Assembly (NCBI GenBank): GCA_048571215.1
Contig: CP182352.1
Coordinates: forward strand, 3,008,001-3,072,000
Source of the DNA: Halarcobacter sp.
GTDB lineage: Bacteria > Campylobacterota > Campylobacteria > Campylobacterales > Arcobacteraceae
Direction: 5' to 3'
Length of the DNA: 64,000 nt
Shown: positions 32,101 to 38,100 of the stretch, in pieces
Layout of the letters: each line of letters opens with the position of its first letter
How positions within the stretch are numbered: position 1 is the first letter of the stretch
Made by a program: the position numbers

Positions 32101-35100
32101 GGGATATTAAGATCAAAAGATAGTTTAGTTAAGGCCTTTGATTATATAAAATACCTAAGAGGTCAATCTTATTCATTGCATTGCATAAATAAAGAGAAAA
32201 GAAATAATGTAGAACTAATCTCTATTTTAGAGTTAAGAAATGCCTTGGAAGTCTCAGAAGCTATGATTTTAGCTGCAAAAAAGAGAAAAGAAAGCAGAGG
32301 TGCTCATCATAGAATTGATTATACAAATACAGATGAAAAGTATTCAAAACATATCCTAATAAAAGAGGTAAAAAAAGGGTTTTTCAAAATAGAACTTGAA
32401 AATAAAGACCTATTATCTAGGTTTAGAAACCTCATACTAAATAAAGAATAAAACAAAAAATTTAACTTAAATAAAGGAGAAAAATATGGCAAAAGTGATG
32501 TTAAGAGAGAGTGAAGGGGTTATATACTTCTATTTCGCAAAAAAAGATATGGAAGAGACTATTGAGTCTTTAGAATTTGATACTCAAGAGAACTGGGGTG
32601 GAAATTGTGAATTATCAAATGGTGAAACATGGTGGATTAAACCAGGAGTTAAAAAGCTACCAAAAGAGGAAGTTTGTAAAAAGATTTCATAAATGAAGTG
32701 GCTGGATACTTTATAAACATATAATAATGTATATAAAGTGTCTTTCTTGTATATAATATAACTTTATTTTGAAAGGATACAAATGGCACTATTTGACAGA
32801 CCAGAATGTGCAAGCTGTTTAACTGTAAAAGAACTTACAACTTTATATGAAATTGCATCAATTATCTCAAATCATTATGATTTAGATACATCATTAGAAA
32901 AATCTATAAAAATATTAAAAAATTCATTGCACTTAACAAACTGTACAGTGCATGTACTAGAAGATGAAGAATTAAAAGTATTTGCTTCTGTTGATTTAAG
33001 CAGAATACAAAAAAAACTTGCAACTTATAAAATTGGAGAAGGGGTAACAGGAATTGCTGCTCAATCAAAAGAACCTGTAGTTGTAGAAAATATCCATAGC
33101 GATTCATTATTTCTAAATAAATCTGGGAAAAGAGATTATACAAATCTATCATATGTAGCAGTACCTATGATAGTTGATAATGAAATGATAGGAGTTTTAG
33201 GAGCAACCTTAACTAAAACTACAGAGATTGGATTTGAGGACTGTGTTAGAATTTTGACTATTATTAGTTCTATTTTTGCACAAACAATTCACTCTTATCA
33301 ACTTAATAAAAATGAGAAAGAAAGATTAAAAGAATTGAAACTTTATTATAAAATGGAATGGGATTCAAAAGTTCACAACTTTGGAGATATCATTGGTGAT
33401 AGTCCAAAAATGCAACAAGTTTTCCAAGTAATACAAAGAATTGCCCAATCAGATGTTACAGTTTTAGTACGAGGGGAAACGGGTACGGGTAAAGAGTTAG
33501 TAGCCGCAGCAATTCACAAAAGAAGTAAAAGACAAGATGAACCTTTTATAAAATTAAACTGTGCAGCTATTACAGATACCCTTCTTGAAAGTGAACTTTT
33601 TGGTCATGAGAAAGGTGCTTTTACAGATGCAAGAGAGACTAGAAAAGGAAGATTTGAACTTGCAGATGGGGGAACTTTATTTTTAGATGAGATAGGTGAT
33701 ATCTCAGCTTCTGCACAAGTAAAACTTCTAAGGGTTTTACAAGAAAGGGAATTTGAAAGAGTTGGTGGAAGTAAAACTATAAAAGTAAATGTAAGATTAG
33801 TAGCAGCAACCAATAGAAATCTTGAAAAAATGGTTGAAGATGGGGAATTTAGAGAGGATTTATATTATAGATTAAATGTAATACCTATTGATTTACCACC
33901 AGTAAGAGAAAGGGGAGATGATATTAGACAACTAGTTGAATTCTTCTTAGAAAAAGCTATTAAAAACCATAAAAAGATGGTTAAAATAACAGATGAAGCT
34001 ATGGATATACTTATGAACTACCCATGGCCTGGGAATGTAAGAGAGCTTGAAAATACTATTGAAAGAATAGTATTGATGGGGAATGAAGATGGAATCAACA
34101 AGTTTGATATGATTCTTTTATTGCCTGCACTAAATGATGAAAAATTTAAAAAAGAGTTCAAATCTATACCTTTAGAGAATAAAACCTTAGAGGAGTTAGA
34201 AAAAGAAGCAATTATAAATGCCCTTCATAATAATAACTTCAATCAATCCCATGCAGCCAAAGAGTTAGGTATAACCCTTAGACAAATTGGATACAAAATC
34301 AAAAAATATGGGATAGAAAATGATATATAAAAATGAAGAGTTTGAGCTAACTGATGAGTTTATAGATGTGGGTTATTCAGCAGAAGAGTTTGAAGCTACA
34401 ACACTGAGTAAAGAGCCTATTGAGATAAAAAAAGCTAATTCAAATAGAATGATTCAAATCTTTTTATCATTTCCTAATTTTGAAGATTTTAAAGAAGAGA
34501 TTATTGAATTTGATGATTTTATGAATGATGCAAAAGTTGAAATATTTACTTATGTTATTTTCGATAAAAATATAGAAATTCCATATGAGTTAAAGAAGAT
34601 AATCCCAATTTTTGACTCAAATAATGAATTTGGTGAGATGTACGGAACGAAAATTGTAAGTGGGAGCTTAGAAGGTAAATTAACCAAAGCACTTTTTCTT
34701 ATAGGAAAAGATGGCGCAATTTATCATATTGATATGCCAAAAGATTTACAAAACCCTCTTGATATGGAAAGGGTTAGAATAGAAGTAAATAAGGTTTATC
34801 AATCATACACTGGAGTTGGATGCCATGGATAATATTTTACAAGATTTAAAAGATGGTACAGTAATACCATTCTTAGGAATGGGTATTTTCGAGAATACCA
34901 CAACAAAAGATGGCAGTAAATTGCCATATGATAGTGATTCTATGATTTTAGCACTAAATAATGGAAGAGCAATGAGCCCAAGATTGATGTATGAGTACAG
35001 TAGGGCAGCAATGAGTTTAGAGCAAAGAAAAGGTAGAGAGTTTATTGTACAAATGACTAATCACATCTACTCTTCAAAAGAGTATGAACTACCAAAAACT

Positions 35101-38100
35101 TACAAATGGCTAGAAAAGATTATGCCTAAATATGTAATTGATACTAATGTTGATGATAGTTTACAAAAAATATATAGCAATGTTGAACACTTTCTAATCA
35201 CAGGGATTTCAAGAATTACTGCCGATTATGATAGATTTGTTATATATAAATATGATCCATCATCAAAAGAGTATACACAAGTTGAAGCTTCACAACTTAC
35301 AACTGATTTACCAATTTTATTTAAACCTATGGGTAGTACAAAACCTGAGATGAATTTTATTATCTCAGATGCTGACTTTGTTGACTGGTTAACAGAAGCA
35401 ATGGGCGGATATGCTGTGCCTCCAATCTTAAAAGAGTACAGAAAAAATAAAAAATACCTTTTTATGGGTGTAGATTTTTCTACTGATACTTTTAGGATGG
35501 TAGCAAATGAGATTACAATAGGTTTAGATGGTGGTTATACCCTAATTAATAAAGATGAATTAACAAAAAAAGAGGATAAATTTATCAAAACTCACAATTT
35601 GGAAAATATCAAAATTGGTGTTGATGAATTTATAAATAACAATGAGTAAAATAACAAATAGATGTGACTTCTGTGGTAAAGAGATAAAAGAAGTAAAAAA
35701 AATTTTTAGTAGTGAATCTTCTCATATTTGTGATGAGTGTATAACTATGTGTGCAAGTGTACTTGAAAAAGAGGTTATTCATGAAGCAAAAAAAGATTTT
35801 CAAAAAGGCTTAAGTGTTCCTATTAAGATAAAAGAACACTTAGATGATTATGTAATTGGTCAAACTGATGCAAAAAAAGTTTTAGCAGTTGCTTTATATA
35901 ATCACTATAAAAGGATTGATAAACCAACTATCAAAAATGTAGAACTAGAAAAATCAAATATAATGTTAGTTGGTCCTACAGGTTCAGGTAAGACTTTACT
36001 TGCAAAATCATTAGCTAAGATTATGGATGTACCTTTTGCAGTTGCTGATGCAACAGCATTAACAGAAGCTGGATATGTGGGGGAAGATGTTGAATCTATC
36101 CTATCAAGACTTTTAGCTGCTGCTGATTTTGACATAGAAAAGGCAAAAAGAGGGATTGTTTACATAGATGAGATTGACAAAATTGCCAATAAAAGTGAAA
36201 GCTCAACAAGTGGTAGAGATGTTAGTGGAGAGGGAGTACAACAAGGTCTTCTAAAGATTTTAGAGGGTGCTGAGGTTTATGTACCTGTAAAGGGTAGTAG
36301 AAAAAACTCAACTGCTGAAACAGTACTTTTTGATACAACTCATGTTTTATTTATCTGTGGAGGAGCTTTTGTAGGCTTACGAAAAGATAAAGAGAAAGAA
36401 AAATCTGCTGTTATGGGTTTTGTAAACAAAGATGAAAAAACTAAAGAGAAAAAAGATATTGAAGCAAAAGAGCTAATCTCTTATGGATTAATCCCTGAAT
36501 TTATAGGTAGAATTCCTGTAATTGCAGAACTTAATAAATTAACCAAAGAGGATTTAATAAGAGTTCTAAAAGAACCAAAAAATGCCATTACAAAACAGTA
36601 TGAGATACTTTTTGAACTTGATGGTGTTACTTTATCATTTAGTGATGAAGCCCTTGAAGAGATTGCCACTATTGCTTATGAAAAAGATGTTGGGGCTAGG
36701 GGACTTAGAGGAATTATTGAAAAAATTATGTTACCTCTACAATACACTATTCCATCAGAAGAAAACTTAGCTAGTTGTATAATAACAAAAGAGTACATCA
36801 AAAAAGAAGAAGAGATAGAGTTGATTTATGAAAAACCACAATCAGCAGAGAAAAAAGCTAAAAAAGAAGTGATGTACGATGATATTAAAAAACAATCTTC
36901 AAATATGTGATGCCTCGAAAGAGGATATCCCATATTTAATAAAACTACTTAAAAACCTATTTTCAATAGAAAAAGATTTTATCTTTAATGAAGAAAAACA
37001 TAAAGATGGTTTAGAACTACTTATTGAAAGTAAAAACTCCCATGTAATTTTAGTGAAATTTGAAAATGAAATTATCGCTATGATAACTATGCAAACTATT
37101 ATATCTACAGTAACTGGCTCAAAAGTTGGCTTACTTGAAGATTTTATTGTAAAAGATGATTTTAGAGATTTAGGAGTAGGAACCCATCTTCTTGATTACA
37201 CAAAACAATTAGCTACTAAAAATAACTTCAAAAGACTTCAACTTGTTTGTGATGAAAACAATGAAATTGCAAAAGAGTTTTATGCCAATAAAAATTTTAA
37301 AAAAAGCAATTTAACTGCTTGGTACTATCATATAGATAATTAATTCTGTGGAATAGTTTTTGCATCTTTTACTTATATTTTTAATGAAGGATGAATTATG
37401 GCAGTAAGAATTACTGAAGAATGTATTAGTTGTGAAGCATGTGCTCCTGAATGTCCAGTAGCAGCAATTTTAGAAGATGGTCATGAAAAGAACCCATTAG
37501 ATGATATCTTTTATGTAAAACCAGAATCATGTGTTGAGTGTGTTGACCATGCAGATGCTCCAAGATGTGCAGAAGCATGTCCAACTGAAGGTGCTATTGT
37601 TTGGGATATGCCTTATACAGCAGACTTCAATGACTATTATGCAGAAAAAAATGAAGAGGGTGTTTATAAAATTAGAGAACACAAGAAAAAAGGTCTGATG
37701 TTACCAAGCGTTAAAGAACAAAAATTTATTGCAGATATTGCAATGTCTGCAAGAGAAAATGCAGAAAATGTTCAAGATTTCTAATCTTTTCTACAAAGCT
37801 GTGTAGTTTAAAAGGGTCTCTTTTTATAAAGAGACCCTTTTTTTATCTCTAAACCTGCTACCTTATTGCAACCTTATTATCATATTATAAGTTATTTAAA
37901 AATAAAGGATTTGGCATGGTTGCAAATAGAAATATAAATAATCCCCTATTAGATGAACTTCATATTGCCATGAATTCGTCAAATATCAAGGAACTTAAAA
38001 AATTAGTTAATGCAAAAAACTTAAATGTAAGAAGAGCTTTAGCTAAAAATAGTGCAATTGATTCAGAAATAGCAAATAAATTAGCCTCTGACCCAGTATT

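What a model noticed while it worked through the whole genome (the two positions that open the first line are those of the whole stretch)
32783..37343. nifA-linked operon of a thioredoxin-fold-like protein, a SIR2_2 protein, a second ClpX and a GNAT: candidate post-transl [...]
Directly after nifA (g02914) and overlapping it come g02915 (170 aa, no family), g02916 (274-aa SIR2_2 domain protein), g02917 (a second ClpX, 422 aa) and g02918 (GNAT acetyltransferase), inside the nif region. I propose that the SIR2_2 protein, a family otherwise known from anti-phage NADases, has been recruited here as an NAD-dependent modifier or NAD sensor that, with ClpX2 and the acetyltransferase, switches or degrades nitrogenase components in a lineage that lacks DraT and NifI. 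New would be a sirtuin-like module in nitrogenase regulation.
Evidence so far: Gene order and overlaps of a few bases. Across the 199,903 genomes of the tables SIR2_2 lies within two genes of zf-C4_ClpX in 48 genomes, 39 of them Campylobacterales; SIR2_2 within two genes of a Sigma54_activat/GAF (NifA-type) gene in 24-25 Campylobacterales. g02916 keeps a 'DTNVDD' motif but has Met ('KPMGS') where g02200 has His ('AHLWG'); read by eye. predict_complex of the SIR2_2 protein with a NifH dimer: weak support only, ipSAE 0.55, best control 0.32; passes at 0.60 or under were reached by 5 of 78 solved complexes and by all 4 mismatches that passed; runs share at least 53% of contacts, partner pLDDT at least 86. 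No DRAT family and no nif-linked P-II gene in the Pfam table; three [...]
(Added by a program. Inside this text positions count along the whole contig: contig position 3,008,001 is position 1 of the stretch shown here. "Call 12" and the like, gene names such as g00115 and contig names such as C1 are that model's own, and its searches are not shown. The text may have been shortened before it was handed on; [...] marks where a part breaks off. The agent that wrote the report below was given it as the finding of a first reader that could run no searches.)

Follow-up and report, generated by a model that had tools for sequence, protein, structure and literature searches.

The report
Nitrogenase-cluster pseudo-sirtuin with second ClpX
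The gene run is real and belongs to nitrogen fixation, but its sirtuin-like protein is an old, widespread and probably non-catalytic helper of nitrogenase gene clusters, not a freshly recruited enzyme that switches nitrogenase off.

Summary
The overlapping run nifA–g02915–SIR2_2–clpX2–GNAT is confirmed; it probably starts at a sigma54-type site three genes upstream. The SIR2_2 gene is nif-specific: 30 of 31 nifD-bearing Campylobacterota carry it, and the one carrier without intact nifD has a decaying nif cluster. It is not a local DraT substitute. It occurs across Pseudomonadota, often beside draT/draG or nifT, and its two subfamilies track NifD lineages. None of 181 members has both catalytic Asn and His, so NADase or deacetylase chemistry is unlikely, against the deacetylase idea already in print (PMC8600466). 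ClpX2 and GNAT separate from it in other genomes, so there is no fixed module. Best reading (0.55): a dispensable, low-abundance pseudo-sirtuin that acts by binding during nitrogenase maturation or protection. Beside it sit a nif-specialised ClpX (RKH→RKN) and a Tpx-fold pseudo-peroxidase with an invariant C-terminal GCH, found only with ClpX2 (19 of 19). The target is unknown. This scan found the same SIR2 family before on other DNA (e1-3576921). New variant of a known kind; interest 0.45.

The parts
29574..29588 (+). sigma54-type (-24/-12) site, probable start of the transcription unit
   Evidence: GG-N10-GC site 115 nt before the AKR start; same place in relative L112 (-111); motif occurs 12 times in the 60-kb nif region against 1.1 expected at the genome rate, and not between here and 37350. 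Function inferred.
29689..30801 (+). aldo/keto reductase family gene, probable first gene of the unit
   Evidence: PF00248; same order in L112 and L161
30805..32451 (+). SdhA/FrdA/NadB-family flavoprotein
   Evidence: PF00890 and PF02910; under every equivalog cut-off shown; 3-nt gap to AKR
   Evidence: PF06988 and TIGR02934 over cut-off
32783..34330 (+). nifA
   Evidence: TIGR01817 over cut-off
34320..34832 (+). Tpx-fold pseudo-peroxidase: no peroxidatic Cys, invariant C-terminal Y-x-G-x-G-C-H
   Evidence: Model pLDDT 90.7; Foldseek TM 0.74-0.81 to thiol peroxidases; its only Cys is C168; Y163, G165, G167, C168, H169 invariant in 25 sequences; orthologues in 19 of 30 nifD genomes, intact in 0 of 10 without
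34825..35649 (+). nif-linked SIR2_2 pseudo-sirtuin, subfamily A (274 aa): Asn108 kept, catalytic His replaced by Met169, GAGxS loop replaced by GMGIF, no Cys
35642..36910 (+). ClpX2, nif-specific second ClpX: Zn finger, GYVG and MGF loops kept, RKH loop changed to RKN
   Evidence: TIGR00382 over cut-off; own clade 100/100 apart from housekeeping ClpX, GSRKNS in all 8 members; distribution
36879..37343 (+). GNAT acetyltransferase, loosely nif-associated
   Evidence: PF00583; hit in 24 of 30 nifD genomes and 1 of 10 without, next to clpX2 in 5 of 30
37349..37364 (+). sigma54-type site of the next gene; marks the probable end of the unit
   Evidence: conserved in L112
37398..37784 (+). 2x[4Fe-4S] ferredoxin, separately promoted, followed by a terminator-like hairpin at 37810-37841

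Best explanation
This is a sigma54/NifA-type nif accessory operon of Campylobacterota in which several separately inherited nif helpers are strung together. The SIR2_2 protein belongs to an old nitrogenase-linked family derived from stand-alone canonical SIR2_2 proteins. It has lost the catalytic dyad and most likely works by binding rather than catalysis. As a low-abundance, dispensable factor, it would hold or sense a nif maturation or protection target (level of NifEN/NifB/NifT rather than NifH), possibly using what remains of its dinucleotide pocket. ClpX2 most likely turns over nif assembly proteins, as reported for Azotobacter ClpX2, here with the single housekeeping ClpP. The Tpx-fold protein is a candidate redox- or metal-sensing partner of ClpX2. 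The GNAT is not a fixed partner. Shown here: gene order, nif-specific distribution, co-divergence with NifD, loss of catalytic residues, separability of the genes. Inferred: cotranscription, lack of activity, binding role, targets.
For: Distribution: 30 of 31 nifD genomes among 301 Campylobacterota; decays together with nifHDK and nifB in G296. Pseudomonadota: 24 of 401, 20 of them with nifD. A nif gene lies in 50 of 58 non-Campylobacterota loci. All 72 plasmid hits are in diazotroph genera, and 3 of 3 inspected lie in nif clusters. Subfamily B fills one NifD clade (14 of 16 rows, SH-aLRT 97). A sigma54 site lies within 300 nt upstream in 16 of 56 loci against 0 of 58 coding controls. Catalytic census: His in 0 of 155 subfamily A; Asn in 0 of 26 subfamily B (25 Trp, 1 Gly); both residues in 0 of 181, but in 2 of 2 outgroups. 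H171A inactivates DSR2, and N112/H152 form the ThsA dyad (PMC11263360 passages). R. capsulatus Rcc03262 (nifZT-SIR2 order; not aligned here) is NifA-dependent at about 7 fmol against NifH 325-405 and NifE 2-4.6. Azoarcus azo0536 (matched by position only) is a NifA/RpoN target with Tn-seq log2FC -0.39 (padj 0.93) on N2, against -5.3 for nifH. Tpx-like orthologue occurs with ClpX2 in 19 of 19 genomes.
Against: No partner or ligand was identified. Family-specific near-invariant charged residues (D106, R130, E191, which differ in the outgroups) could mark a rebuilt active site, and low abundance also fits an enzyme. NAD binding itself is doubtful: the Ser of GAGxS is absent in all 155 subfamily A sequences, and Pro replaces Ala in 46 of 155 and 24 of 26. 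SIR2 stays next to clpX2 (directly or across clpP) in 21 of 30 Campylobacterota genomes. The literature proteins were not aligned to the family, and the Tn-seq row has low counts (baseMean 13, SE 1.8).
Confidence: 0.55

Rival explanations
1. A divergent enzyme with rebuilt chemistry: the invariant D106, K167, R130, D184 and E191 replace the Asn/His dyad and carry out an NAD- or ADP-ribose-dependent reaction on a Nif protein or a small molecule.
For: D106, D110, K167, G170, D184 and R224 in 155 of 155 subfamily A sequences, R130 and E191 in 154 of 155; 70-84% identity across Campylobacterota hits; sub-stoichiometric to NifH in R. capsulatus; often beside draT and draG.
Against: The two subfamilies lost opposite halves of the dyad yet occupy the same niche, one match per genome. 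K167, D184, E66, R71 and R224 are shared with canonical outgroups, so they are probably structural. The family is common where DraT is absent.
Confidence: 0.2
2. NifL-like control of NifA: in Campylobacterota the pseudo-sirtuin (with or without the Tpx-like protein) binds NifA and tunes it by redox or nucleotide state.
For: nifA lies within 1.5 kb upstream in 13 of 29 other Campylobacterota loci; in genus g32 the gene overlaps nifA directly after loss of the Tpx-like gene and clpX2; no NifL here.
Against: nifA is within 10 kb in only 13 of 58 non-Campylobacterota loci and in 1 of 22 loci of the second Campylobacterota set; the gene is itself a downstream NifA target in R. capsulatus and, by position, Azoarcus.
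Confidence: 0.1
3. First reader's module: the GNAT acetylates and SIR2 deacetylates or otherwise modifies nitrogenase, ClpX2 degrades it, and together they replace DraT/DraG and NifI.
For: Overlapping genes; no DraT in 0 of 30 plus this genome; raw anticorrelation with DraT in Pseudomonadota; nitrogenase acetylation reported in Z. mobilis (PMC8600466 passages).
Against: No catalytic His and no Cys for a zinc subdomain; GNAT next to clpX2 in 5 of 30 genomes and not found in 6 of 30; SIR2 without ClpX2 in 5 genomes, and ClpX2 without SIR2 in G216; coexists with draT in 15 of 58 loci; the anticorrelation is one clade.
Confidence: 0.07
4. An anti-phage NADase that landed beside clpX2 by chance.
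For: Nearest solved folds are KomC, ThsA, Avs5 and DSR2 (Z 13-14.6 for the top four rows).
Against: Near-perfect match to nifD and co-decay with nif; no PADLOC hit; G+C 0.30 like its neighbours; catalytic His lost.
Confidence: 0.02

Closest known systems
SIR2_2 NADases of anti-phage systems (KomC, ThsA, Avs5, DSR2)
   Same: Fold (VIA Z 14.6, rmsd 4.4, 229 aligned for KomC); profile match at sequence level, E 8.6e-6 to 2e-4; Asn and Asp of the NYD motif
   Different: No catalytic His, no Tyr (V109), GAGxS lost, stand-alone, conserved in nif clusters, no defence partner
nif-cluster 'SIR2 family proteins': Z. mobilis ZMO1821, R. capsulatus Rcc03262, Thalassolituus and Paenirhizobium sir2
   Same: Same annotation and nif context; nifZ-nifT-SIR2 order as in subfamily B loci (12 of 15 with nifT adjacent); induced on N2
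   Different: Papers call them putative deacetylases or regulators on annotation alone; the census here argues against that. Their sequences were not aligned here, so membership rests on gene order.
Azotobacter vinelandii ClpX2
   Same: Second ClpX inside a nif operon (PMC9866876 passage); controls NifB and NifEN levels (title of Martinez-Noel 2011 in a reference list; paper not read)
   Different: Here it follows SIR2, not nifWZM; it has RKN for RKH; it is paired with a second ClpP in 20 of 22 loci of one Campylobacterota set; orthology unresolved
Thiol peroxidase Tpx
   Same: Fold, TM 0.74-0.81
   Different: No peroxidatic Cys; one invariant Cys-His in a C-terminal tail; nif-specific, beside ordinary housekeeping paralogues
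DraT/DraG switch-off system
   Same: nif-linked, NAD-related fold theme; the SIR2 family lies between draT and draG in loci L045, L057, L077, L089
   Different: No DraT here; the family neither needs nor excludes DraT

Membership tests
SIR2_2 NADase (ThsA/DSR2/KomC type) | SIR2_2 domain and fold | tested here: met
   PF13289 34.8 bits over cut-off 24.5
SIR2_2 NADase (ThsA/DSR2/KomC type) | catalytic Asn (ThsA N112, DSR2 N133) | tested here: met
   N108; 152 of 155 in subfamily A, but 0 of 26 in subfamily B
SIR2_2 NADase (ThsA/DSR2/KomC type) | catalytic His (ThsA H152, DSR2 H171) | tested here: not met
   Met169; His in 0 of 155 subfamily A; requirement from PMC11263360
SIR2_2 NADase (ThsA/DSR2/KomC type) | GAGxS NAD-binding loop (role recalled) | tested here: not met
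   GMGIF against GAGAS in the outgroups and GAGVS in KomC
SIR2_2 NADase (ThsA/DSR2/KomC type) | anti-phage system context | tested here: not met
   nif context throughout; no PADLOC family
SIR2_2 NADase (ThsA/DSR2/KomC type) | NAD+ hydrolysis | not testable with these tools
   needs an assay
Sirtuin deacylase (CobB/Sir2) | catalytic His and Cys4 zinc subdomain (recalled) | tested here: not met
   no His at the position; no Cys in the protein; no NCBIfam hit
nif-linked pseudo-sirtuin family (subfamilies A and B) | full-length homology with S-D-[AS]-D-[FY]-V-[DE]-x-x-T-E motif, and nif context | tested here: met
   A-to-B profile match 99.8%, E 1.6e-28; tree; contexts
DraT/DraG | DRAT gene | tested here: not met
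   0 in this genome and 0 of 30 relatives; control G305 positive
NifI1/2 | P-II genes in the nif cluster | tested here: not met
   three P-II hits, all more than 500 kb away
ClpX | C4 zinc finger, GYVG pore loop, IGF-type loop | tested here: met
ClpX | RKH loop | tested here: not met
   GSRKNS in all 8 nif-linked Campylobacterota copies; GGRKHP in the other ClpX clades
Azotobacter-type ClpX2 | orthology to the nifM-linked ClpX2 | tested here: inconclusive
   no Azotobacter sequence in hand; the one nifM-linked ClpX (L121) is a long branch
Thiol peroxidase Tpx | Tpx fold | tested here: met
Thiol peroxidase Tpx | peroxidatic Cys in PxxxTxxC (motif recalled) | tested here: not met
   FPNFEDFK at that place, and the only Cys is C168; no conserved Cys there in 36 homologues

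The most novel reading that the evidence does not exclude
Campylobacterota, lacking DraT, NifI and NifL, use two pseudo-enzymes as sensors for a dedicated nif protease. The Tpx-fold protein (Cys-His tail) reads redox or metal state and the pseudo-sirtuin reads NAD(H)/ADP-ribose. Together they deliver nif proteins to a ClpX2 with an altered substrate loop, giving proteolytic control of nitrogenase assembly. The pseudo-sirtuin would be a conserved, unnamed nif protein dating from before the split of proteobacterial and campylobacterial nitrogenases.
Probability: 0.12. Interest if true: 0.8.

Novelty: new variant of a known kind. Interest (0 to 1): 0.45.

Why it matters
Engineering nitrogenase depends on knowing which accessory genes matter. 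This family is inherited with NifD across two phyla, is NifA-driven where measured, and has no assigned function in the papers found. Two papers guess that it is a deacetylase. The residue census says that guess is probably wrong and redirects tests toward binding partners. The Campylobacterota-specific Tpx-like gene and RKN-loop ClpX2 give concrete candidates for nitrogenase control in a lineage without DraT. If the gene is only a dispensable helper, the gain is modest.

Tried and rejected
Complex prediction of the Tpx-like protein with SIR2 (alignments A5 and A1): no answer, score 0.00, no evidence either way.

Search for fused forms: 1 hit among the 7999 candidates scored, P0278 (NifS-NifT-SIR2 pieces). 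It contains out-of-frame stretches, so I rejected it as an assembly artefact. The 590-aa open frame in G503 is an out-of-frame extension, not a fusion.

Apparent anticorrelation with DraT: it was real after rescoring all candidates, but reduces to one NifD clade.

RNA: one metatranscriptome (X1, share 0.27) gives contigs over parts of the unit, one spanning 31912-32811. These are contigs from a single study and DNA is not excluded, so they were not used.

Single-sequence PDB search found nothing. The sigma-70 scan was below chance (31 against 52). My first sigma54 patterns missed the GGAACA type. ORF clustering was polluted by shadow frames and was replaced by labelled tblastn.

Paper searches for a characterised function or a Campylobacterota description found none; supplement search of PMC12903952 was blank. 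The library lacks most subscription journals, and bioRxiv supplements were closed. Searches of earlier findings by words and by place were blank.

Diazotrophs outside Campylobacterota and Pseudomonadota were not surveyed by genome.

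
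Full report
Observation. The five genes are as described: nifA 32783-34330, a 170-aa gene 34320-34832, SIR2_2 34825-35649, ClpX 35642-36910 and GNAT 36879-37343, overlapping by 11, 8, 8 and 32 nt. Upstream lie nifT, an SdhA/NadB-family flavoprotein gene and an aldo/keto reductase gene. A sigma54-type motif occurs 12 times in the 60-kb nif region against 1.1 expected at the genome rate. It stands 45-54 nt before nifE, nifN and nifH, 115 nt before the reductase gene and 48 nt before the ferredoxin after the GNAT, but not before nifT or nifA. Relative L112 has the same order and both sites. The unit is therefore probably eight genes, 29689-37343 (inference).

The SIR2 gene is a nif gene. Of 301 Campylobacterota genomes, 31 have nifD and 31 have the family; 30 have both, one of them frameshifted (counts include this genome). 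G216 has nifD only. G296 has a broken copy inside a nif cluster in which nifB, nifV, nifH, nifD, nifK, clpX2 and the Tpx-like gene are all fragmented. Kin are not independent, but this excludes a stray defence gene.

It is not a Campylobacterota recruit. Of the 58 non-Campylobacterota loci, 50 hold a nif gene in up to 10 kb of flank, 15 draT, 16 draG, 23 hemerythrin, 1 clpX, 1 the GNAT and none the Tpx-like gene. The window protein also matches 72 of 72,556 plasmids, all in diazotroph genera, against 244 with nifD; the three inspected lie in nif operons, two directly after nifT. In 401 Pseudomonadota, 24 have the family, 46 nifD and 29 DraT. Twenty of the 24 have nifD; of the other four, three were inspected and two have nifB and nifQ beside the gene. 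The family forms subfamilies A and B. On a NifD tree of 53 rows (G669 left out as partial), B fills one clade (14 of 16 rows) and A goes with the gamma-type and Campylobacterota clades (quick method, SH-aLRT only). It has travelled with nitrogenase for a long time.

DraT. This lineage lacks it (0 of 30, control positive). Among nifD Pseudomonadota the family is in 15 of 19 without DraT and 5 of 27 with it; the absences held when all candidates were scored. That looks like replacement, but all 22 DraT-positive, SIR2-negative genomes lie in one NifD clade (support 95), and draT is within 700 nt of the gene in 12 of 58 other loci.

Catalysis. The fold is closest to KomC, ThsA, Avs5 and DSR2 (model pLDDT 77). 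A canonical stand-alone relative aligns end to end: FLGMG to FLGAG, DTNVDD to TTNYDD, KPMGS to KMHGS. In DSR2, Y134, D135 and H171 are needed, and ThsA N112/H152 is the dyad (PMC11263360 passages). The census covered 181 unique sequences: loci L001-L145, every fourth of the top 120 hits, and full-length representatives. Three frameshifted or partial proteins, one duplicate of the query and loci with broken ORFs were dropped, and the set is weighted to Campylobacterota and purple sulfur bacteria. Subfamily A has His in 0 of 155 and Asn in 152; subfamily B has His in 13 of 26 and Asn in 0; none has both, while both outgroups do. The glycine loop is also degenerate and the protein has no Cys. Canonical NADase or deacylase activity is unlikely, and even NAD binding is uncertain (inference).

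Neighbours. A second ClpX occurs in 24 of 30 nifD genomes and 0 of 10 without. It forms its own clade with RKN in place of RKH. It is next to SIR2 in 21 of 30 but missing in five g32 genomes that keep SIR2, and present in G216 without SIR2. The 170-aa protein is a Tpx fold without the peroxidatic Cys and with an invariant YxGxGCH tail; orthologues occur in 19 of 30 nifD genomes, all with ClpX2, and intact in 0 of 10 without. The GNAT is hit in 24 of 30 and 1 of 10, and abuts clpX2 in 5. These are nif helpers with local synteny, not a fixed module.

Literature (passages or table rows only). PMC8600466 proposes ZMO1821 as a nif-island deacetylase; the protein rises 5.8 log2 on N2 (PMC8594446 supplement rows). 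bioRxiv 10.64898/2026.08.28.747955 finds SIR2-2 beside nifH in 23 of 25 Thalassolituus diazotrophs, with draT in 18. PMC13455631 lists sir2 as regulatory. PMC6925177 shows Rcc03262 to be NifA-dependent at about one fiftieth of NifH. Azoarcus azo0536, matched only by position between hemerythrin and draT, is a NifA/RpoN target (PMC3916325) and is not depleted on N2 (PMC9769520 supplement; low counts). None of these proteins was aligned here. ClpX2 control of NifB/NifEN rests on a reference-list title and an operon description. Searches found no functional characterisation. Earlier scan note e1-3576921 reached a similar reading on another genome; it is not independent support.

Verdict. Most likely (0.55) a dispensable, low-abundance pseudo-sirtuin acting by binding in nitrogenase maturation or protection, cotranscribed with a nif-specialised ClpX and a pseudo-peroxidase. 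Rivals: rebuilt enzyme 0.2, NifA regulator 0.1, acetylation-and-degradation switch 0.07, defence gene 0.02. No target was identified. New variant of a known kind; interest 0.45.

Noticed in passing
window 29689-32451; L112; L161: Aldo/keto reductase plus SdhA/NadB-like flavoprotein before nifT is kept in other Campylobacterota nif clusters, even in G216, which lacks the SIR2 gene. With modD (QRPTase family, 28550-29413) the region holds several NAD-pathway folds; modD directly precedes SIR2 in 2 of 58 other loci.
   Followed up: partly
window 7244-7624 and 7624-8145: Two related genes after nifN; the second is Redoxin/Tpx-like (E 3.7e-6), the first has no family. They are followed by ankyrin and SagB-like nitroreductase genes.
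   Followed up: no
window 20159-20518: 119-aa gene without family between nifH and nifD, kept there in L096, L100, L101, L160, L161 and L163.
   Followed up: partly
window 32708-32739: Inverted repeat (13-bp arms, one mismatch, 6-nt spacer) between nifT and nifA, read by eye; possible regulator site or hairpin.
   Followed up: no
window 13098-14348: rpoN lies inside the nif cluster.
   Followed up: no
window 11985-12266 and 12352-12738: NifZ-like stretch (tblastn) and a 128-aa gene without family after nifW.
   Followed up: no
window 37916-38245: 109-aa gene with a Cys-rich C-terminus and no family hit.
   Followed up: no
L091-L113: A second, nif-linked clpP lies between SIR2 and clpX2 in 20 of 22 loci; a 275-aa double GNAT follows nifV in 14 of 22 and in this genome outside the window.
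   Followed up: partly
L160 (G296): A whole nif cluster in decay, every gene fragmented.
   Followed up: yes
genome outside the window (C1:3380358, C1:2323819; three ADP-ribosylglycohydrolase genes): Two other SIR2_2 proteins, the 401-aa one with intact TTNYD and KLHG motifs, and three ADP_ribosyl_GH genes far from nif.
   Followed up: partly
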